Positions 1,146 through 41,778 of a stretch of DNA of 64,000 bases are shown piece by piece; positions within the stretch are counted from its first letter, which is position 1, and every line of letters begins with the position of its first letter. Origin of the DNA: Patescibacteria group bacterium (GTDB lineage: Bacteria; Patescibacteriota; Patescibacteriia; JAHIZJ01); NCBI GenBank assembly GCA_028714495.1, contig JAQTMH010000004.1, positions 128,232 through 192,231 of the forward strand. The letters run 5' to 3'. The notes under the pieces were generated by a model. The model saw nothing but the letters and a program-made list of their open reading frames with translations, was not told where the DNA came from and did not search any database. A program made the translations under genes and the position numbers.

Positions 1146-4100
1146 ATGAGTTTTCTTGAAAAACGACCAATAAAAAAAATCGCGGTACTGGTGCTTATGA
1201 CCGGTTTTTTGATCTGGGCATATAATCCTCAAATTCTTTCAGCTGATGATTCTGTAACATTACTACCTTCGGCTGACGGTACAGATGATAGCGCTAATTG
1301 GACAAATACTGTGCCCACTGCTTGTAATAGCACGGATTGCTTTGTAGAAGTTGATGAAAGCAGCGGCGCAACGTGTACCAATAGCGACGGCGATAGTTCT
1401 TATATCGTCAGTAGCACTAATGGCGCGAATCAAACTTTTGATATTGACGAGTCAAGTATTCCAAATAACGCCGTAATAACCCAGATTACCGTTGTTACTT
1501 GTGATAAAAGAGGCGAGGGAGGAGCAAAAATGCGAACGAGAATATGTGTTGATGGGACCTGCACTAATTCAGGAACAGATATCGCTTTAGACAGTTCATA
1601 CTTAGAACATTCTCAAGCTCATGCCGTTAGTATCACAAAAACAGCCGGTACGGATATTGAGATTGGCGTATCAAACACTGCGGCCAAAAGCGCCAGGGTC
1701 AGTAAAATTTCGGCAATCATTACGTATGATGCGACCGCCCCGGCGGCAGTAACTAACCTAGCTGCCTCCAATGCCACTGGTTCATCAATTGATCTTTCTT
1801 GGACTGCGCCAGGAGATGACGGAGACACAGGAACTGCTGCTACCTATGACGTTCGTTACTCCACCTCAACTATTACCGAAGGGAATTGGTCATCAGCTAC
1901 CCAAGTCTCAGGCGAGCCTGTGCCATCCATTGCCGGTTCAAGTGAATCAATGACCGTTTCTGGCCTAAACTCCAATACAACCTATTACTTTGCCTTGAAA
2001 ACTTCAGATGAAGCGCCAAATGTTTCCGGGATTTCCAATGTACCCAGTCTGGCCACTTTAGATATTACAGCCCCAGCCGCCGTCTCTAATCTGGCTGCTA
2101 CTAATGCCACTGGCTCATCAATTGATCTTTCTTGGACCGCGCCAGGTGACGACGTAAATAGCGGGACTGCCAGTTTGTACGATGTTCGCTACTCCACCTC
2201 AAATATTACCGGAGGAAACTGGTCATCAGCTACCCAAGCCACAGGCGAGCCAACACCTTCCATTGCCGGTTCAACTGAATCAATAACCGTTTCTGGCCTT
2301 AATTCTGAAACTGCTTACTATTTTGCTCTTAAAACTTCAGATGAGGTGCCGAATGTTTCCGGACTTTCTAATGTACCCAGTTTGGCCACGCTCGATATCA
2401 CGGCGCCGGTCATAAGCAATATCTCCAGCGGCACTCCTGGCGAGACATCGGCGACTATCACCTGGGATACGAATGAAGCGGCCACTTCGCAGGTTGAGTA
2501 TGGTCCCACAACGAGCTATGGCTCGATGACGACCCTGGATGCTGATTTGGTTACCGCGCACTCGGTTGCCATTACCGGTTTAACTCGTGATACCGACTAT
2601 CATTTCCGCGTTAAATCAAAGGACGCTTCCAGTATTGAAGCAGTGTCAGGCGACGAATCTTTTACCACTAGCGTGCTTCCTGGCCCGGTTATTTCAAATA
2701 TTTCCTCATCCAATATCAAACAGACTGAAGCTGCTATCACTTGGACTACTGATACAGCCAGCACTTCGCAGGTTCTCTATGGTACAACCATTGGTAATTA
2801 TACGGAATCGACAGTTTTAGATACAGATCTAGTCACTTCTCATTCTGTGTCACTGACCGGGCTGGCCGCGGCCACTGTTTATTATTATGTGGTTCAATCA
2901 GTGGATGCCGGTTCTCACGCTTCTGTTTCCTCGGAGTATTTTTTTACCACTTTGAACAGCAATGCCCCTCCAGACACTGTTCCGCCAGAAATTTATAGCA
3001 TAACGGTCTCGGATATAACTCAGACAGCCGCGACAATTGCCTGGACGACTGATGAAGCGGCCACTTCACAGGTTGAGTATGGTTTAACCGCTGATTACGG
3101 CTACAGCAGCGCTTTAGACAGCACCATTGTTACCGCTCATTCTATTTCCCTAGCCGAATTGGAGGGGGGGACACTCTATCATTTCCGAGTTAAATCAAAA
3201 GATAATTCGGATAACGAGGGAGTATCGGCTGATCAGAATTTTACCACTGAATCAGGCGAAGAATTACCTCCGGAGGAAAATGACACTACTCCGCCGGTTA
3301 TTTCCGATTTAGTAGCAAACAGTATTACTGACAGTCAGGCCACAATAATTTGGGTAACAGACGAAGCGGCAACCTCGCGGGTTTTTTACGGAACAACGAG
3401 CGGCGGTTATTCTAATATTACTTCAGAGGATGCGACAAAAGTACTGTCTCACAGCAGGGTGATTAGCGGGCTGTCCTCGTCAACTAGTTATTATTATATT
3501 GTCAAATCAAAAGACGCTTCGGGCAATGAAGCCAGTTCAGGCGAAAAATTTTTTATTACAGCCAAACCGGCACCGACGGCGCCCGGTGCTCCGGGAACTA
3601 CTAAACCAAAGACTTCACCCGGTGGAACAGTAACAGAAAAAGAGATTTTACCTACCCAGGGGGATACTACTCCGCCTGTAGTGACGCTTGAAAAAATTAC
3701 CCCCAATCCCACCGATAATCAGAAACCGACGATAACCGGAACAGCCACAGACCAAGACGGTGTCATCGCCAGCCTGGCCATTTCGCTTAATGACGGAAAA
3801 ACCTGGCATCCGGTCACAACTATAGAGGGTCTGGGTGCAGATAAAGCGGTTTTTACCTATATTCCCGCGCTTTTGGAAGACGGCGATTTTTCCATTAAGG
3901 CCAGAGCCCGGGATAACAGCGGAAATGAAGGATTTTCCGAAACCCAGGCGCTAGTCATAGATTTACTCCCTCCGATTTTTGGAGGAAAAAGCATCTTGAT
4001 CGGCAACCAATCCGCGTCCATATCTTACGATGGCACTGTTAATTCAGTCGTCGGCTTGACCCAAAAAATCGTAATTTCTGCCAAAGGCGGGCCAACAGCG

Positions 4101-5108
4101 ATGACAGTGGCGGCCCAGTCACAAAATAGCAAAGAACCGGATCAGATTTTTGACTTGCGTTATGTCGAGTCGGAAAATCTTTGGGCCGGCGATTTGGTTT
4201 TTGCCTCGAGCGGTATTTATAATCTTGAGCTTACCGCTAAAGATGGGGCTGGCCATATTACCAACCAGGTCTTGAATGCTATTATCGTTCAACCAGCCGG
4301 CGAAGTTCTGGAGGCAAAAACAGGCCGACCGGTTTCTGAAGCACGAGTAGCCCTTTACCAACGCGATTCGTCCACAAATCAGTGGATATTATGGCCAGCC
4401 GAAGCCTTTGGCCAGCATAACCCGCAGGTTACTGGCGAAAATGGTGAGTATCAGTTTTTTGTCCAGCCGGGCCAGTACTATCTTGAAGTTTATAAGGAAG
4501 ATTGGCAGTTGACGGTAAGTCGAATTATTACTTTAGATATGAACGGGCCGATCAGTGGTGACATTCTTCTTACCAAAAAACCCAGCCTTCATCTAGGAAT
4601 AATCGATATCACTCTGTCTCCATGGTCCATCTTTGCCAAGTCCGTGACCGTCTCTCCGTCAACCTCTACCCAGGAATCGTCAAGCCATCTTTTTGATCAG
4701 GTTATCGGCCAGCCAGCGCCTGAATTCATCCTGGCTGATTCCAACGGCGGAAAAAATTGGTTATCCGACCAACGAGGCAAAAAAGTGGTTATTTCAGTCT
4801 GGAATACCTGGGACAGCAAATCTCAAGAACAGCTGGCCTGGCTTGAACAAGTTGCCGAGAAAAAAGGAATTTATACGACCATCCTCCCTTTGGTGCTGCA
4901 GGAAAGTCCGAGTAAGGTACAGACATACCTCAAACGGGGAGGGTATTCCATCGTCAGTCTGGTTGATACGACAGGCGCCTTTACCACATTATTTCCCGTC
5001 ATATCCGTCCCCCAGCACTTCTTCATTGATCGCAAGGGCATTCTGCGTGATATTTATGTTGGTTTTTTAGATGAAGACGACCTGATTCAAAAAGTCGACG
5101 CTTTATAG
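1146..5108 (+). CDS. giant secreted/anchored surface protein: FN3-like repeat array, carboxypeptidase-regulatory-like domain and C-terminal TlpA/redoxin-like domain lacking the CXXC motif
   Basis: ATG at 1146 gives signal-peptide-like MSFLEKRPIKKIAVLVLMTGFLIW (the ORF-track start at 1125 is TTG). Two 111-aa repeats (…LSWTAPGDD…YDVRYSTS…YYFALKTSDE…) and four ~95-aa repeats (…ITWTTDEAATSQVEYG…YHFRVKSKD…). C-terminus resembles a redoxin fold (…VISVWNTWDSKS…) with no cysteines. Confidence 0.7.
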   Translation: MSFLEKRPIKKIAVLVLMTGFLIWAYNPQILSADDSVTLLPSADGTDDSANWTNTVPTACNSTDCFVEVDESSGATCTNSDGDSSYIVSSTNGANQTFDIDESSIPNNAVITQITVVTCDKRGEGGAKMRTRICVDGTCTNSGTDIALDSSYLEHSQAHAVSITKTAGTDIEIGVSNTAAKSARVSKISAIITYDATAPAAVTNLAASNATGSSIDLSWTAPGDDGDTGTAATYDVRYSTSTITEGNWSSATQVSGEPVPSIAGSSESMTVSGLNSNTTYYFALKTSDEAPNVSGISNVPSLATLDITAPAAVSNLAATNATGSSIDLSWTAPGDDVNSGTASLYDVRYSTSNITGGNWSSATQATGEPTPSIAGSTESITVSGLNSETAYYFALKTSDEVPNVSGLSNVPSLATLDITAPVISNISSGTPGETSATITWDTNEAATSQVEYGPTTSYGSMTTLDADLVTAHSVAITGLTRDTDYHFRVKSKDASSIEAVSGDESFTTSVLPGPVISNISSSNIKQTEAAITWTTDTASTSQVLYGTTIGNYTESTVLDTDLVTSHSVSLTGLAAATVYYYVVQSVDAGSHASVSSEYFFTTLNSNAPPDTVPPEIYSITVSDITQTAATIAWTTDEAATSQVEYGLTADYGYSSALDSTIVTAHSISLAELEGGTLYHFRVKSKDNSDNEGVSADQNFTTESGEELPPEENDTTPPVISDLVANSITDSQATIIWVTDEAATSRVFYGTTSGGYSNITSEDATKVLSHSRVISGLSSSTSYYYIVKSKDASGNEASSGEKFFITAKPAPTAPGAPGTTKPKTSPGGTVTEKEILPTQGDTTPPVVTLEKITPNPTDNQKPTITGTATDQDGVIASLAISLNDGKTWHPVTTIEGLGADKAVFTYIPALLEDGDFSIKARARDNSGNEGFSETQALVIDLLPPIFGGKSILIGNQSASISYDGTVNSVVGLTQKIVISAKGGPTAMTVAAQSQNSKEPDQIFDLRYVESENLWAGDLVFASSGIYNLELTAKDGAGHITNQVLNAIIVQPAGEVLEAKTGRPVSEARVALYQRDSSTNQWILWPAEAFGQHNPQVTGENGEYQFFVQPGQYYLEVYKEDWQLTVSRIITLDMNGPISGDILLTKKPSLHLGIIDITLSPWSIFAKSVTVSPSTSTQESSSHLFDQVIGQPAPEFILADSNGGKNWLSDQRGKKVVISVWNTWDSKSQEQLAWLEQVAEKKGIYTTILPLVLQESPSKVQTYLKRGGYSIVSLVDTTGAFTTLFPVISVPQHFFIDRKGILRDIYVGFLDEDDLIQKVDAL

Positions 5109-17017: not shown

Positions 17018-17110
17018 CAATGTCATCCCGCACTTGATGCGGGATCCCATTAATCTTGCCGCATCGGGATCCTGAAACGCCCCCGACTTGATCGGGGGTC
17101 AGGATGACAA
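17018..17110 (+). repeat. tandem GC hairpins with identical ACTTGAT loops nested in an outer GTCATCC/GGATGAC stem
   Basis: CCCGCA-CTTGA-TGCGGG and CCCCCGA-CTTGA-TCGGGGG, enclosed by gtcatcc…ggatgac. Confidence 0.5.
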
Positions 17111-35714: not shown

Positions 35715-35996
35715 CTGCCAGAGAATTCAAAATGTAAAATGCAAAATTTAGGTTGCCGCCGTAGGCGGATACCAACATTTTTAATTTTGAGTTTCTTCCC
35801 TGACCCAACGGATTTCGTATACTTTTATCCGAGGATCTTTGCCGGTGGTATACAGCGATACCCGCCCAGCAGTCATGCCGGACTTGATCCGGCATCTCCA
35901 TTATCAACCCGAGGTGAATAATTATATAGACCATACCCGCCTCTGGTTGGTACTTAATCAGCCTTACCTATTTTCATTATCCATCTAGCTTTTTCC

Positions 35997-36114
35997 AGCT
36001 AGGTTAATAAAGGGGGCCTACGGCGGGTTATTTGCCTATGGCTCCGCTTTCGTTTGGCCTGAAAATATTGTTAAGGAGCTCTATGATTGTTGGTGTGAAG
36101 GCAAATAAAAAAAG
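35997..36114 (+). repeat. copy 2 of the 118-bp direct repeat
   Basis: See 23707..23826. Confidence 0.9.
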
Positions 36115-36230
36115 ACGGCAGGTGTCGTCTCGACATGGGTATCATGGGTGCCAAAGCCGGGCTTTGACTTGGGGGATTCTAATCCCGATACCTGTCATAT
36201 GAGACGATAACTGCCGTTATGTGCCGGAAG

Positions 36231-36629
36231 CTACGCTAGAGCTGGCACAGCCGCCTCGGTCGCCATGGACGCACGCGCGTCAGGTACGGGGCTGACCCGG
36301 AGGTCAAAGGGCTCGGCACCGCAGGCGCGGATGAGCTCTTCATCACCACCGAGAAAGACTACCCGTCTGGCGGGATTGACCATGTGTCCGGCCCGATTCC
36401 TGTACGGCTGCGTAGAGGCGAGCCAGTTGGTCAGACTGAGGTTACCCTCGGACGCGACCACGCCGCACACCTTGCCGGGTCGGACTTCGTTGGAGCAGAC
36501 CTCCAGGTCTCTGATTGTGTTCGGACTGCCTGCCACAGCGAATCTGATACCGGGTGTGTGCGTGTGACTGCCATCTTTGCCATTAACGTGATTGAAACAG
36601 CACATGTGGATCTCCCGATCTTTGTACAA
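36231..36629 (-). pseudogene. decayed M20D amidohydrolase paralog fragment in a GC-rich segment
   Basis: …HMCCFNHVNG…SHTHT… and …RRVVFLGGDEELIRACGAEPFD… parallel …MHACGHDFHT… and …RLLFTQAEE…ELIRARGADGL… of the intact M20D gene. Several overlapping ORFs on both strands, none convincing. Confidence 0.3.
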
Positions 36630-37008
36630 CCCTTCCTGGGTTGTGGGTTTAGAAGAGGACCTCCTTACCTCCGTGTGGTTGTAATAGCCCTAGTCAGGTG
36701 AACTTATTCTTCATCCAACCCCTCCTTCCCCTCTTCGAAGTTCTGATCCTGGCAGTGCCTGGCACTGCTCCAGCCTGGTTCCTCCTCGGGAAAAAGTGGG
36801 GGAGAGCGCGGCAGTTGACAAATGGCGTTGGCTTGGATACGTGGAGATCGGGAGAAGACCACGATACCCATTGCCCAGCGCCTTACTTGTTCATACGTGT
36901 CCGGCTCTCCCATAAACCTGTTTATCTCTAGAAGAGAGGTACTCGATAACCCAGAATACAAAGAGCGTATTTTTATAATACGCTAATTTGCTAATATGTC
37001 AAGCTGGG

Positions 37009-39166: not shown

Positions 39167-39360
39167 TTGTGCGCCTGGTCCCACCACTAGCTCGCGTTGC
39201 TCGTCGTCCGGGACAAGCTCTGCGACTGTCATTTCTCTCCTTTGTGCGCCCGGCAGCCCCGCACCATTCCGCTTCGCTCCAGGTATGGGGTCTTCGAGAG
39301 TTGAATCCCGGATCTCCTCGCATTGCTTGTCGTCCGGGACAAGCTCTGCGACCTAGGTAT
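39167..39360 (-). repeat. tRNA-Arg-derived debris: two partial copies of the tRNA-Arg 3' end, a degenerate T-arm/acceptor fragment and two copies of a 37-nt hairpin repeat
   Basis: TTGTGCGCCTGGTC (39167-80), TTGTGCGCCCGGCAG (39242-56) vs tRNA end TTGGTGCGCCCGGCAGG. Hairpin repeat …CTTGTCGTCCGGGACAAGCTCTGCGAC at 39190-39226 and 39316-39352. Confidence 0.6.
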
Positions 39361-39369
39361 TCCTCAACT

Positions 39370-39446
39370 TGGTGCGCCCGGCAGGAGTTGAACCTGCGGC
39401 CTTGAGATCCGCAATCTCACGCTCTATCCAGCTGAGCTACGGGCGC
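39370..39446 (-). tRNA. tRNA-Arg (anticodon GCG as read)
   Basis: GCGCCCGTAGCTCAGCTGGATAGAGCGTGAGATTGCGGATCTCAAGGCCGCAGGTTCAACTCCTGCCGGGCGCACCA. Canonical cloverleaf, CCA encoded. Confidence 0.8.
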
Positions 39447-39481
39447 ACCAAGTTGATGAGTAATGCATTATGGTTTAATAG

Positions 39482-39547
39482 TCGGGGTTTAATTGAAGAG
39501 TTTATCCCCGCGAAAGCGGGGACTCTATCCAGCTGAGCTATGAGGGC
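39482..39547 (-). pseudogene. truncated tRNA-like 5' half (acceptor + D-arm) fused to a GC hairpin
   Basis: GCCCTCATAGCTCAGCTGGATAGAG (D-arm identical to tRNA-Arg) then CCCCGC-TTTC-GCGGGG. No T-arm or 3' acceptor. Confidence 0.4.
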
Positions 39548-40909: not shown

Positions 40910-41041
40910 ATTAAAAAAAGTAATAATCTAATATAGCGCAAATTATTCTTTTTGTCAAGACTAATAAGTTAAGTAAGAGTTTTTAACGATTATTCAAGAT
41001 CCTTAGATTTTTTCTATAAGTATGTGGGATCCCGCACAGAG

Positions 41042-41128
41042 CGGAGGGGGTGAGATTCGAACTCACGGTACCTTTGCAGGTACAACGGTTTTCAAGACCG
41101 TCCCCTTAAACCACTCAGGCACCCCTCC
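41042..41128 (-). tRNA. tRNA-Ser (anticodon TGA)
   Basis: GGAGGGGTGCCTGAGTGGTTTAAGGGGACGGTCTTGAAAACCGT…GTGAGTTCGAATCTCACCCCCTCCG. Long variable arm. CCA not encoded. Confidence 0.8.
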
Positions 41129-41237
41129 GCCATGTGCGAAATCGCACTTCGCCAATTAGATATTCAAGCGTTTCCCAATCAAGAGACTTTTCAAATTAAT
41201 TTTGGCTACCAGCCACACGTAGCCTTGGCGAAGTGTG

Positions 41238-41260
41238 GCGGAGAGTGCAGGATTCGGGTC
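41238..41260 (-). repeat. 23-nt duplicate of the tRNA-Ser(GCT) 3' end, with a degenerate tRNA-Ser-like pseudo-copy between it and the real gene
   Basis: gtggcggagagtgcaggattcg occurs at 41238-41260 and in the tRNA at 41387-41409. Intervening GC-rich 126 nt resembles a collapsed tRNA-Ser (GGCGGAGTTGCCGGCGGC…CAGGACCCGAATCCTGCACTCTCCGCCACA). Confidence 0.6.
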
Positions 41261-41386
41261 CTGGGCAGCGGCGGACTTGCCGCCGGCAACTCCGCCGGCG
41301 TCTCGCGGCGCCCTTCGGGCTTGCTCACTGCTGCCCTTCGAATCCTGTCTTTGCTTTTTAACTTGCTTCCGCTTCGCTCCAGCATG

Positions 41387-41476
41387 TGGCGGAGAGTGCA
41401 GGATTCGAACCTGCGAGGCCCCCGAAGGGGCCAAGGTTTAGCAAACCTTTGCCTTAAGCCACTCGGCCAACTCTCC
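41387..41476 (-). tRNA. tRNA-Ser (anticodon GCT)
   Basis: GGAGAGTTGGCCGAGTGGCTTAAGGCAAAGGTTTGCTAAACCTT…GCAGGTTCGAATCCTGCACTCTCCGCCA. CCA encoded. Confidence 0.85.
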
Positions 41477-41479
41477 TTG

Positions 41480-41725
41480 TTATTGGCTGTTAAATAGCCA
41501 TTTAATTCTGTCACGGCCCTTACCTGATTTTAAGAATTTTTCCTCTCTCGCTGCATCATCTTTGTTATAGAATACCTCGTAATATATTAATACCCAAGGC
41601 CCATTCTGTTTTGTGAAGATAGACTTACCCGACTGATGTTCGATTAGTCTGCGTTTCAGGTTGTTGGTAAGACCTTTATAAAGCTTACTATTGGATTTAC
41701 TTTTTAGAATATATACATAATACAT
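41480..41725 (-). CDS. GIY-YIG (URI-domain) nuclease-family small protein
   Basis: MYYVYILKSKSNSKLYKGLTNNLKRRLIEHQSG… typical of the COG2827/YhbQ-like family. Stop codon 4 nt from the tRNA-Ser 5' end. The ORF-track start is 9 nt upstream (GTG). Confidence 0.75.
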   Translation of the reverse strand: MYYVYILKSKSNSKLYKGLTNNLKRRLIEHQSGKSIFTKQNGPWVLIYYEVFYNKDDAAREEKFLKSGKGRDRIKWLFNSQ

Positions 41726-41730
41726 AATAA

Positions 41731-41778
41731 CCACTCTCGGCCCAAGGCCGATCCGCCTCGGGCGGAGGCCAACTCTCC
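41731..41778 (-). repeat. tRNA-Ser(GCT) 5' fragment (acceptor to D-loop) interrupted by a small GC hairpin, immediately upstream of the GIY-YIG start
   Basis: GGAGAGTTGGCC[TCCGCCCGAGGCGGATCGGCCTTGGGCC]GAGAGTGGTT vs tRNA GGAGAGTTGGCCGAGTGGCTT. Confidence 0.6.

What the first reader, a model, noticed from the sequence alone, without database searches (positions are those of the whole stretch)
41387..41778. GIY-YIG nuclease gene wedged between a 5' fragment of tRNA-Ser(GCT) and the intact tRNA-Ser(GCT)
Seen in sequence, on the minus strand:
- The order is [GGAGAGTTGGCC…GAGAGTGGTT (tRNA-Ser acceptor and D-arm, with a 28-nt GC hairpin inserted between GGCC direct repeats)] then [GIY-YIG ORF starting within or right after the D-loop-like sequence] then 4 nt then [complete tRNA-Ser(GCT)].

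Established knowledge: GIY-YIG domains are the catalytic modules of homing endonucleases and other mobile nucleases.

Inference: the GIY-YIG gene arrived by insertion into a tRNA-Ser gene with regeneration or duplication of the tRNA. This would be a free-standing homing-endonuclease-like insertion in a tRNA D-region, which is unusual; known bacterial tRNA introns sit in the anticodon loop.
Basis: partly seen in the sequence, partly recalled or inferred. Interest (0 to 1): 0.6.

Follow-up and report, generated by a model that had tools for sequence, protein, structure and literature searches.

The report
Nuclease-plus-spare-tRNA cassette inside a tRNA gene
A tiny nuclease gene sits inside the broken remains of a serine tRNA gene next to a complete replacement copy of that tRNA, and the same layout recurs across many ultra-small (CPR/Patescibacteria) bacteria, which suggests an undescribed selfish DNA element that breaks an essential gene and carries its own spare.

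Summary
On the minus strand the order is:
- tRNA-Ser(GCT) bases 1-12
- a 30-nt double palindrome ("H1H2")
- tRNA bases 13-20
- an 81-aa GIY-YIG ORF
- 3 nt, then an intact tRNA-Ser(GCT)
- a 130-nt GC-rich spacer

The locus therefore looks like a resident tRNA gene split open by a cassette that carries the nuclease gene and a whole spare tRNA.

It is not a one-off. I examined 80 species-level genomes, nearly all labelled Patescibacteria.
- In 69 of them a relative of this ORF is followed, from 47 nt of overlap to a 36-nt gap, by a same-strand tRNA. Across the 74 loci with any downstream same-strand tRNA, that tRNA is Ser in 68, Tyr in 4, Cys in 1 and Asp in 1.
- In 78 of 81 loci the ORF is preceded by a tRNA 5' remnant interrupted by the same covarying double palindrome.

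The protein is a bare catalytic domain. It is closest to UPF0213/YhbQ and Slx1, and it is under strong purifying selection.

The best reading is a homing-like, tRNA-gene-targeting selfish cassette with a built-in replacement tRNA. The closest known analogue is phage T4 SegB. Cleavage specificity, the role of the palindrome and mobility itself are inferred, not shown. I found no description of it in the literature searched.

The parts
41767..41778 (-). 5' remnant of tRNA-Ser(GCT), bases 1-12 (GGAGAGTTGGCC). It starts 12 nt after the ComF-like stop codon.
   Evidence: Identical to 41476..41465. These are the only two copies in the window (family D11).
41737..41766 (-). H1H2: two adjacent perfect 15-nt palindromes (TCCGCC-CGA-GGCGGA and TCGGCC-TTG-GGCCGA), inserted precisely between tRNA bases 12 and 13.
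   Evidence: The same element lies upstream of the ORF in 78 of 81 loci. 11 of 12 stem pairs show compensatory changes, and G.U pairs are almost absent.
41729..41736 (-). Continuation of the tRNA remnant (GAGTGGTT, about bases 13-20). After this the tRNA similarity ends.
   Evidence: Matches the intact tRNA at 7 of 8 positions. In other loci this stub is typically 3-14 nt.
41480..41725 (-). GIY-YIG ORF, 81 aa plus stop. It is a catalytic domain only.
   Evidence: Pfam PF01541 at E=2e-16. PDB sequence hits are UPF0213 proteins. The AlphaFold2 model has pLDDT 90 and is nearest UPF0213, Slx1 and the I-TevI catalytic domain. 640 homologues were found.
41387..41476 (-). Intact tRNA-Ser(GCT), starting 3 nt after the ORF stop codon.
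   Evidence: ARAGORN and Rfam RF00005 at 58.6 bits.
41257..41386 (-). GC-rich spacer (59-71% GC) between the tRNA and the repeat of its 3' end. It contains CAGGATTCGAA (41347..41337), which is complementary to the tRNA T-loop and the 3' strand of the T-stem. It also contains the 16-mer CTGGAGCGAAGCGGAA (41382..41367), which is shared with the tRNA-Arg spacer.
   Evidence: Comparable spacers with a covarying anti-T-arm motif follow tRNA-Ser genes in at least 10 other loci.
41234..41256 (-). 3' remnant: an exact 23-nt repeat of the tRNA 3' end, from the T-loop to CCA plus 2 nt (CGAATCCTGCACTCTCCGCCACA).
   Evidence: family D6, 100% identity over 23 nt.
39505..39547 (-). The same kind of scar without an ORF: a 5' remnant of tRNA-Arg (25 nt, 88% identical to the tRNA) followed by an 18-nt GC hairpin (39522..39505). 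It lies about 60 nt upstream of the intact tRNA-Arg(GCG) at 39446..39370.
   Evidence: (family D5).
39170..39369 (-). Two tandem GC-rich units of about 126 nt downstream of tRNA-Arg. Each ends in a sequence resembling the tRNA-Arg 3' end.
   Evidence: families D3, D4. The shared 16-mer lies at 39282..39267.

Best explanation
The 81-aa GIY-YIG gene is the nuclease of a compact selfish cassette that lives inside tRNA genes of CPR/Patescibacteria.

**Layout in this window**
- A resident tRNA-Ser(GCT) gene appears to have been split.
- Its 5' part remains on the left: bases 1-20, interrupted after base 12 by the 30-bp double palindrome H1H2.
- Its 3' part remains on the right, from the T-loop to CCA.
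- Between these remnants lie the ORF, a complete replacement tRNA-Ser(GCT) 3 nt after the stop codon, and a structured spacer.

**Proposed mechanism (inferred)**
1. The nuclease is a minimal Slx1/UPF0213-like domain and is probably structure-specific. It breaks tRNA genes in or next to their loop regions and/or next to the extruded palindromes.
2. The break is repaired by copying from a cassette-bearing allele, using the tRNA sequence itself as the homology.
3. The ORF is therefore always copied together with an intact tRNA.
4. The replacement tRNA appears to be transcribed through the ORF, so the host would find it hard to delete the ORF.

**Shown**
- The anatomy in the window.
- Its conservation in about 80 genomes.
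- Covariation in the palindrome.
- Remnants that derive from other tRNA alleles.
- Purifying selection on the protein.

**Inferred**
- Nuclease activity and its target.
- The repair pathway.
- Present-day mobility.
For: 1. **Anatomy in the window.** A 5' remnant, H1H2, the ORF, an intact tRNA, and an exact 23-nt repeat of the tRNA 3' end.
2. **Fixed linkage to a tRNA.**
   - 69 of 80 loci from different species genomes have a same-strand tRNA from 47 nt of overlap to a 36-nt gap after the ORF stop.
   - 5 loci have one 68-388 nt away, with extra remnant units in between or a decayed ORF.
   - 5 loci are cut by contig ends.
   - All four Ser isoacceptors occur, plus Tyr (4), Cys (1) and Asp (1).
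3. **Conserved upstream structure.** 78 of 81 loci have a tRNA 5' remnant of the same isoacceptor type interrupted by H1H2. The insertion points are bases 8, 12-13, 16, 20-21 and 35-36, plus the T-loop. The remnant is on average 90% identical to the neighbouring tRNA, and 100% identical in 40 of 71 loci.
4. **The palindrome is under selection.** 11 of 12 stem pairs show compensatory changes, and only 6 of 744 cells are G.U.
5. **Remnants from a different allele than the intact tRNA.**
   - In L003 the remnants have acceptor GGAGGCG/CGCCTCC and the intact tRNA has GGAGGGG/CCCCTCC.
   - L013 and others show the same kind of mismatch.
6. **Signs of turnover.** There are nested and ORF-less units (L013, L021, L025, L026, L064) and a disrupted ORF (L043).
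7. **A recent replacement in a close relative.** In L001, 97% identical to the window, the middle of tRNA-Ser(TGA), from the anticodon loop to the T-loop, has been replaced by a foreign intact tRNA-Ser(TGA). Both ends of the old gene remain as remnants.
8. **Protein tree does not follow tRNA identity.** Copies from Moranbacteria cluster together although they sit at GGA, CGA and GCT tRNAs.
9. **The protein is functional.**
   - dN/dS is 0.02-0.35.
   - The candidate catalytic Tyr, Arg, His and Glu residues are conserved: Y5, Y16, H30, E61 and E62 invariant, R25 and R26 at least 90%.
   - The predicted fold is nearest the structure-specific nuclease Slx1 and UPF0213.
Against: - No clean empty-versus-occupied pair of alleles was found in close relatives. 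L001 and L002 both carry the module.
- Synonymous sites between copies are saturated (median pS 0.85). Most copies are therefore old, which also fits a vertically inherited host gene.
- The protein has no DNA-binding domain, unlike characterised homing endonucleases.
- Why the intact neighbouring tRNA is not itself destroyed is unexplained.
- How H1H2 reaches new positions, and why the remnant always ends a few nucleotides beyond it, is unexplained.
- In L015 the downstream 3' repeat matches the intact tRNA, not the 5' remnant. A simple 'one resident gene split once' history does not hold everywhere.
Confidence: 0.55

Rival explanations
1. Host (housekeeping) gene reading. The small GIY-YIG protein has a cellular job, such as DNA repair or RNA processing, and is simply co-transcribed with tRNA-Ser. 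H1H2 is an operator or leader structure. The tRNA pieces are by-products of local tandem duplication.
For: - Strong purifying selection and saturated synonymous divergence.
- Near-universal ORF-tRNA spacing.
- Closest solved relatives are UPF0213/YhbQ proteins of unknown function.
- The ComF...tRNA-Ser...RecG neighbourhood recurs in distant CPR lineages.
- The 5' remnant stays matched to its tRNA, which suggests constraint.
Against: - Only some tRNA-Ser genes in a genome carry the ORF. It sits at different isoacceptors, and at Tyr, Cys or Asp tRNAs, in different genomes.
- There can be two copies per locus (L003, L024).
- ORF-less and decayed units exist.
- The palindrome sits at variable positions inside remnants.
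- Remnants derive from foreign alleles.
- The lack of G.U pairs argues against an RNA leader structure.
Confidence: 0.2
2. Palindrome-centred reading. The 15-nt or 30-nt GC palindromes are the mobile entities, comparable to REP or MITE elements, and they insert into tRNA-like DNA. The GIY-YIG protein is their mobilising or resolving nuclease, analogous to RAYT transposases with REP sequences. The duplicated tRNAs are survivors of lethal insertions.
For: - Palindromes also occur without an ORF inside tRNA remnants (L003, L013, L064, L077, L090).
- Single hairpins occur in tRNA-Arg pseudo-copies (L020, L021, and the window at 39522..39505).
- They occur in either orientation (L025).
- The insertions are precise, with no target duplication.
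- Remnants are always truncated 3-16 nt from a palindrome.
- The protein has a Slx1-like fold, which suits recognition of DNA structure.
Against: - There is only one H1H2 in the 64-kb window, and in the roughly 3-kb loci they are confined to tRNA remnants. They are therefore not dispersed like REP elements.
- No known GIY-YIG enzyme performs strand transfer.
- This reading overlaps with the best explanation rather than excluding it.
Confidence: 0.15
3. Integrase-scar reading. The tRNA fragments are leftover att repeats from genomic islands or phages that integrated into tRNA genes, and the GIY-YIG ORF is unrelated cargo or chance.
For: - A direct repeat of the tRNA 3' end, as at 41256..41234, is the classic signature of integration into a tRNA gene.
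- Strain-variable gene content begins exactly at the tRNA 3' end in L003, L004, L007, L118 and L121.
Against: - There is no integrase in the locus.
- The segment between the repeats is only 130 nt.
- Integrase scars do not explain 5' remnants, the conserved palindrome or the fixed ORF-tRNA spacing in 69 genomes.
- The family is essentially absent from phage and viral collections.
Confidence: 0.05

Closest known systems
Phage T4/T6 SegB, a free-standing GIY-YIG homing endonuclease in the tRNA gene cluster
   Same: - It has a GIY-YIG catalytic domain.
- Its gene sits next to tRNA genes.
[quoted passage not shown]
- It homes together with the flanking tRNA genes.
- It can generate tandem duplications of tRNA plus segB through microhomology between the tRNA 5' region and the segB 3' region (PMC2330249, PMC13096335).
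   Different: - SegB belongs to phages and shows no preference for a tRNA isotype.
- From my own knowledge, not checked here, SegB is much larger (about 220 aa) and has a DNA-binding domain.
- The protein here is an 81-aa bare domain in cellular CPR genomes. It has no detectable phage relatives and only marginal matches to homing-endonuclease profiles.
- Here there is a fixed 0-12-nt spacing to one tRNA.
- Here there is a double palindrome inside a tRNA remnant, and an almost exclusive link to tRNA-Ser and tRNA-Tyr.
UPF0213 / YhbQ-type stand-alone GIY-YIG proteins (BH0048 1zg2, EF2693 1ywl) and the Slx1 nuclease domain
   Same: - Best sequence matches: 1zg2 at E=7e-7 (Foldseek gives 34% identity) and 1ywl at E=4e-4.
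- Best fold matches include Slx1 at TM 0.64-0.69.
- They are single catalytic domains of about 80-100 aa.
   Different: - No NCBIfam family-level match was found.
- I found nothing in the searched literature linking UPF0213 proteins to tRNA genes or palindromes.
- Slx1 needs its partner Slx4 and has an additional domain.
tRNA introns (bacterial group I introns in the anticodon loop; archaeal BHB introns at varied positions)
   Same: - Foreign DNA sits inside tRNA gene sequence at loop positions.
- Some group I introns carry GIY-YIG endonuclease genes.
   Different: - The interrupted copy is only a truncated remnant, and a complete tRNA follows it.
- There is no ribozyme.
- There is no Rfam intron match.
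- The element is a 30-nt DNA palindrome.
Integrative elements that regenerate the tRNA gene they insert into
   Same: - The tRNA stays intact after insertion.
- A partial tRNA copy is left as a direct repeat.
   Different: - There is no integrase.
- Remnants occur on both the 5' and 3' sides.
- The cassette is only a few hundred nucleotides long.
Synthetic 'cleave and rescue' (ClvR) gene drives (recalled from my own knowledge, not checked in the library)
   Same: The logic is the same: a nuclease that damages an essential gene is linked to an intact rescue copy of that gene.
   Different: ClvR is engineered, is based on Cas9, and its rescue copy is recoded. Here neither cleavage of tRNA genes nor resistance of the rescue copy has been shown.

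Membership tests
GIY-YIG nuclease superfamily (Pfam PF01541) | Profile match above the curated cut-off. | tested here: met
   60.4 bits against a cut-off of 22.6, E=2e-16.
GIY-YIG nuclease superfamily (Pfam PF01541) | A beta-beta-alpha-beta-alpha fold with conserved Tyr (GIY), Tyr (YIG), Arg, His and Glu. | tested here: met
   - The model has pLDDT 90.4.
- Its nearest folds are UPF0213, Slx1, I-TevI and UvrC GIY-YIG domains.
- Y5, Y16, H30, E61 and E62 are invariant, and R25 and R26 are at least 90% conserved, in 32 sequences.
UPF0213/YhbQ stand-alone GIY-YIG family | A single-domain protein of about 80-100 aa with significant sequence similarity to family members. | tested here: inconclusive
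   - 1zg2 at E=7e-7 and 1ywl at E=4e-4.
- No family-specific profile was available, and NCBIfam gave no family-level hit.
Free-standing homing endonuclease (SegB/Seg-like) | A nuclease domain fused to a sequence-specific DNA-binding domain. | tested here: not met
   The protein is 81 aa and the whole length is the catalytic domain.
Free-standing homing endonuclease (SegB/Seg-like) | Significant similarity to the homing-endonuclease families used in annotation. | tested here: not met
   - TIGR01453 scored 18 bits against a cut-off of 56.
- PHROG matches were E=0.005.
- There was no tblastn hit in 50,697 phage records.
Free-standing homing endonuclease (SegB/Seg-like) | Presence/absence polymorphism at the same locus in close relatives. 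| tested here: inconclusive
   - Both close relatives (L001, L002) carry it.
- The metagenome scan with the ComF-like neighbour found no close relatives.
- Presence varies among tRNA-Ser genes and among lineages.
Free-standing homing endonuclease (SegB/Seg-like) | Site-specific cleavage of the allele that lacks the gene, followed by gene conversion. | not testable with these tools
   This needs biochemistry or genetics.
tRNA intron (group I or BHB type) | One tRNA gene whose two exons flank the insert and are joined after excision, with a ribozyme core or a BHB motif. | tested here: not met
   - A complete tRNA lies downstream.
- The upstream copy stops at about base 20.
- No intron family was found at E<=1.
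Integrase-mediated island in a tRNA gene | A tyrosine or serine integrase gene plus att direct repeats that bound the element. | tested here: not met
   A 23-nt repeat is present, but only 130 nt lie between the copies and there is no integrase ORF.
REP/RAYT-type palindrome system | Many dispersed palindromic repeats plus an HUH (Y1) transposase. | tested here: not met
   - There is one H1H2 in 64 kb.
- In the other loci they occur only at tRNA remnants.
- The associated protein is GIY-YIG, not HUH.

The most novel reading that the evidence does not exclude
A natural 'cleave-and-rescue' mobile element. A minimal, structure-specific GIY-YIG nuclease and its 30-bp double-palindrome site break resident class-II tRNA genes at their loops. 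They spread by gene conversion together with an intact rescue tRNA that is transcribed through the nuclease gene. This would be a third way, besides introns and inteins, for a homing nuclease to colonise an essential gene. It would also be a driver of tRNA gene turnover across the Candidate Phyla Radiation.
Probability: 0.3. Interest if true: 0.9.

Novelty: new variant of a known kind. Interest (0 to 1): 0.72.

Why it matters
- **A new strategy for a selfish nuclease.** If the reading is right, a selfish nuclease can occupy an essential, single-copy RNA gene without splicing, by bringing a spare copy of the gene with it. That logic has so far been known mainly from engineered gene drives.
- **A candidate function for an uncharacterised family.** The bare UPF0213-like GIY-YIG domain would gain a concrete candidate substrate: tRNA-gene DNA or a defined double palindrome.
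- **An explanation for odd CPR loci.** It would explain tRNA fragments, GC-rich hairpins and strain-variable tRNA loci in CPR genomes.
- **A practical annotation problem.** These ORFs are labelled only 'GIY-YIG nuclease family protein' or 'putative endonuclease' where they are named at all, and some called proteins read across H1H2 or into the tRNA.
- **Even the dull alternative is useful.** A host gene locked to tRNA-Ser with a covarying DNA palindrome would still be a new, testable regulatory unit.

Tried and rejected
- **Chance.** Rejected. The 12-mer and the 23-mer repeats are unique pairs in the window, and the architecture recurs in about 80 independent assemblies.
- **tRNA intron.** Rejected. 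The downstream tRNA is complete, and no intron family matches.
- **Phage or prophage origin.**
  - One weak hit (44% identity) in IMG/VR, with no tRNA nearby.
  - No hit in GenBank phages.
  - No match to defence-system models.
- **Known RNA family for H1H2 or the spacers.** None at E<=1.
- **Empty-site search.** The metagenome scan with the ComF-like neighbour returned only distant relatives (32% identity or less), so it was uninformative.
- **A staggered-cut model.** I considered a cut that would duplicate the palindrome on both sides of the insert. Rejected, because paired 5' and 3' remnants in L003 and L064 carry palindromes of different sequence at different tRNA positions.
- **A sharp left boundary at H1.** The L003 versus L007 comparison first seemed to place the left boundary of a 99.9%-identical block exactly at the first base of H1. 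On inspection the shared block extends about 40 nt further upstream, with a 58-nt deletion between two H1H2 copies. I do not claim H1 as an element end.
- **Promoter scan.** No convincing sigma-70-like promoter lies just upstream of the 5' remnant in the window.
- **Literature.** Searches for GIY-YIG with tRNA, Patescibacteria, UPF0213, YhbQ or COG2827 found no description of this arrangement.
Full report
**1. Check of the observation**

All features below are on the minus strand.
- ARAGORN and Rfam find an intact tRNA-Ser(GCT) at 41476..41387.
- The 12-mer GGAGAGTTGGCC occurs only twice in the window. One copy is tRNA bases 1-12 and the other is at 41778..41767, 12 nt after the stop codon of a ComF-like gene.
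- Next come two adjacent perfect 15-nt palindromes at 41766..41752 and 41751..41737.
- Then comes GAGTGGTT, which matches tRNA bases 13-20 at 7 of 8 positions. The 30 nt therefore sit exactly between tRNA bases 12 and 13.
- The ORF runs from ATG 41725 to stop 41480. It encodes 81 aa and is a clear GIY-YIG domain (PF01541, E=2e-16).

**2.

*A repeat of the tRNA 3' end.* A further 151 nt downstream there is an exact 23-nt repeat of the tRNA 3' end, from the T-loop to CCA plus 2 nt (41407..41385 = 41256..41234).

*The spacer between the copies.*
- It is 130 nt long and 59-71% GC, in a genome of about 47% GC.
- It contains CAGGATTCGAA, which is complementary to the tRNA's own T-loop and the 3' strand of its T-stem.

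The whole locus therefore reads as a resident tRNA-Ser gene whose 5' and 3' ends flank an insert made of the ORF, a complete tRNA and the spacer.

*The tRNA-Arg(GCG) gene 2 kb away carries similar scars but no ORF*.
- A 25-nt 5' remnant followed by a GC hairpin lies upstream of it.
- Two tandem units of about 126 nt lie downstream, each ending in a sequence like the tRNA-Arg 3' end.
- One of these units shares an exact 16-mer with the tRNA-Ser spacer.

**3. The protein**
- The organism is a Patescibacteria (CPR) bacterium. The best hit (98% identity) is in GCA_028717285.1, with the same gene order.
- 640 homologues were found, at 60-85% identity, in many CPR lineages.
- The protein is nothing but a catalytic domain.
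  - PDB sequence hits are the UPF0213 proteins BH0048 and EF2693.
  - A confident model (pLDDT 90) is nearest to UPF0213, the Slx1 nuclease domain and the I-TevI catalytic domain.
- Y5, Y16, H30, E61 and E62 are invariant, and R25 and R26 are at least 90% conserved, in 32 sequences.
- Matches to homing-endonuclease profiles are marginal.
- There is no match to defence-system models.
- The family is essentially absent from viral collections.

**4. The arrangement is a conserved module**

A scan of one genome per species found 367 relatives, and I examined the best 80 loci.

| Downstream tRNA status | Loci (of 80) |
|---|---|
| Same-strand tRNA, from 47 nt of overlap to a 36-nt gap after the ORF stop | 69 |
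| Same-strand tRNA 68-388 nt away, with extra remnant units or a decayed ORF | 5 |
| Locus cut by a contig end | 5 |
| No downstream tRNA (L071, the most divergent protein) | 1 |

The gap is usually 0-12 nt. In about a dozen loci the ORF runs 14-15 nt into the tRNA.

| Identity of the downstream tRNA | Loci (of 74) |
|---|---|
| Ser (all four isoacceptors) | 68 |
| Tyr | 4 |
| Cys | 1 |
| Asp | 1 |

Two lineages, L003-L012 and L024, carry two modules in tandem, one for tRNA-Ser(TGA) and one for tRNA-Ser(GCT).

**5. The upstream structure is conserved too**
- In 78 of 81 loci the 140 nt before the ATG contain the same double palindrome: NNNGCC-CRA-GGCNNN followed by NNNGCC-TNG-GGCNNN.
- It sits inside a 5' remnant of a tRNA of the same type as the downstream one.
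- The insertion point is after base 12 or 13 in 40 of 71 loci. The others are at bases 8, 14, 16, 20-21 and 35-36, the last being inside the anticodon.
- After the palindrome the tRNA sequence continues for only about 3-14 nt.
- The remnant is on average 90% identical to the neighbouring tRNA, and identical in 40 of 71 loci.
- Across 62 distinct palindrome sequences, 11 of 12 stem pairs show compensatory double changes (128 cells), while G.U pairs are almost absent (6 of 744). One caveat applies: I picked the windows by their pairing, so the percentage paired is biased upward. The compensatory changes are not affected.
- The lack of wobble pairs, and the fact that loop 1 (CAA) is the reverse complement of loop 2 (TTG), point to a DNA-level palindrome or hairpin rather than an RNA structure.
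- In L025 a second copy lies in the inverted orientation.

**6. Signs of breakage and replacement of tRNA genes**

*A rule for palindrome-bearing remnants.* Nearly every remnant keeps the full tRNA on one side of the palindrome and only a short stub on the other side.
- 5'-type remnants precede an intact tRNA, with or without an ORF (for example L013 and the window).
- 3'-type remnants follow an intact tRNA (L003, L039, L064, L077, L090).
- L072 is the exception. Its tRNA-Asp pseudo-copy has two palindromes, and it is truncated 5 nt after the second one.

*Remnants from another allele.* Remnants often come from a different allele than the intact tRNA. In L003 the 5' remnants and the 3' remnant share the acceptor stem GGAGGCG/CGCCTCC, while the intact gene has GGAGGGG/CCCCTCC.

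*Repeated rounds.* Nested units (L021, L025, L026) indicate repeated rounds of the process.

*A recent event in a close relative.* In L001, which is 97% identical to the window:
- 31 nt in the middle of tRNA-Ser(TGA), from the anticodon loop to the T-loop, are replaced by 114 nt;
- the 114 nt carry a foreign intact tRNA-Ser(TGA) flanked by short inverted repeats;
- both ends of the old gene remain as remnants.

The breakpoints there lie in the same loops where the palindromes are found elsewhere.

**7. Selection and history**
- Between copies, synonymous sites are saturated (median pS 0.85) while median pN is 0.24. The closest pair gives dN/dS of 0.02. The protein is functional and most copies are old.
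- The protein tree does not follow tRNA identity. Moranbacteria copies at GGA, CGA and GCT tRNAs cluster together, and the Tyr-linked copies are scattered. This fits spread between tRNA genes within lineages.
- Most contigs carrying one of these proteins are under 2 kb, and several end about 240 nt upstream of the ORF. That is typical of repeated or strain-variable DNA.

**8. Most likely mechanism**

The steps below are inferred from the anatomy.
- I read the module as a selfish cassette that targets tRNA genes and carries its own replacement tRNA.
- A break in a tRNA gene, in or near a loop or next to the palindrome, is repaired by copying from a cassette-bearing allele. The tRNA itself supplies the homology.
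- Because the ORF sits directly upstream of tRNA base 1, it is copied along with the tRNA.
- Because the only intact tRNA now appears to be transcribed through the ORF, deleting the ORF would be costly.
- A bare, Slx1-like GIY-YIG domain with no DNA-binding module fits recognition of DNA structure (hairpin or cruciform) better than recognition of a long sequence.

None of the following is shown: nuclease activity, its target, the repair route, or how the palindrome reaches new positions.

**9. Rival explanations**
- **Host gene co-transcribed with tRNA-Ser.** This fits the strong selection and the age of the copies. It does not explain the varying tRNA partners, tandem copies, decayed and ORF-less units, or remnants from foreign alleles.
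- **Palindrome-centred view** (REP/RAYT-like). This explains palindromes without an ORF and the fixed distance to the truncation points, but the palindromes are not dispersed. It shades into the main model.
- **Integrase scars.** These explain only the 3' repeat.

**10. Comparison with what is known**
- The closest system is phage T4/T6 SegB, a free-standing GIY-YIG homing endonuclease in a tRNA gene cluster.
  - It homes together with neighbouring tRNA genes.
  - It drives duplication of tRNA plus segB (PMC2330249, PMC13096335).
- The present module works like that in outline but is not a member of that family.
  - The protein is an 81-aa UPF0213-like domain.
  - It is cellular and CPR-wide, and it is locked to one tRNA.
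  - It comes with a covarying double palindrome inside a tRNA remnant.
- I found no description of this arrangement in the searchable literature.

**11. Limits**
- No empty-site allele was found in a close relative.
- The metagenome scan was uninformative.
- Many record titles of the MAGs are coarse or probably wrong, for example 'Gammaproteobacteria' or 'Saccharibacteria'. The taxonomic spread beyond 'mostly Patescibacteria' is therefore not established.
- Whether the module-linked tRNA is the only copy of its isoacceptor could not be checked.

Noticed in passing
window 39170-39547 (minus strand), around tRNA-Arg(GCG) at 39446..39370: A 25-nt 5' remnant of tRNA-Arg plus an 18-nt GC hairpin lies upstream of the tRNA. 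Downstream are two tandem GC-rich units of about 126 nt, each ending in a sequence like the tRNA-Arg 3' end. An exact 16-mer (CTGGAGCGAAGCGGAA) is shared with the tRNA-Ser spacer. This is the same kind of scarring as at tRNA-Ser(GCT), but without a nuclease gene. In L020 and L021, tRNA-Arg pseudo-copies carry single 15-nt palindromes.
   Followed up: partly
window 41234-41386; also L004/L007 about 3955-4165 and L015, L016, L019, L045, L053, L058, L059, L065, L078, L107-L116, downstream of the tRNA: A conserved element of 130-210 nt follows tRNA-Ser genes in distant CPR taxa.
- It begins with a hairpin.
- Next is a motif complementary to that tRNA's own T-loop and the 3' strand of its T-stem; the motif covaries with the tRNA.
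- Next is a long hairpin with the conserved tip CAAACTGCTTTG.
- Next is a GGAGGAG-like stretch.
- It ends in an exact repeat of the tRNA 3' end.

It could be a tRNA-like RNA, the right end of the cassette, or a small element that integrates at the T-loop. There is no Rfam match.
   Followed up: partly
L001 3636-3749 versus window 41060-41090 (tRNA-Ser(TGA) at 41128..41041): In a relative that is 97% identical, the middle of tRNA-Ser(TGA) has been replaced by a foreign intact tRNA-Ser(TGA) flanked by the inverted repeats CCCAGCACC / GGTGCTGGG. The old 5' part (to the anticodon loop) and the old 3' part (from the T-loop) remain as remnants. This is a recent tRNA gene replacement with no adjacent ORF or palindrome.
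   Followed up: partly
window 39358-39380 with 39440-39462, and 41024-41049 with 41122-41147: The flanks of tRNA-Arg and tRNA-Ser(TGA) are complementary to each other, which would extend the acceptor stem by about 8-16 bp. This could be a processing helix or the terminal inverted repeats of a tRNA cassette.
   Followed up: no
window 35715-37008: A 1.3-kb stretch between a DsbA-like gene and recG has no convincing ORF, about 54% GC, several GC hairpins and no Rfam match even at E<=1. Hairpins with an ACTTGA-type loop occur here (35875-35895) and at 17025-17098 and 41269-41285.
   Followed up: partly
L024 1308-1395: ARAGORN calls a 'tRNA-Ser(ACT)' between two GIY-YIG modules. It is probably a pseudo-tRNA remnant rather than a real gene with an unusual anticodon.
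   Followed up: no
Proteins P0041, P0057, P0107, P0114, P0119: Some database gene calls for this family carry N-terminal extensions that are translations of the GC palindrome region. Others carry C-terminal extensions that read into the tRNA (for example ...GEVAEW, which is GGAGAGGTGGCCGAGTGG). These are annotation artefacts caused by the module.
   Followed up: no
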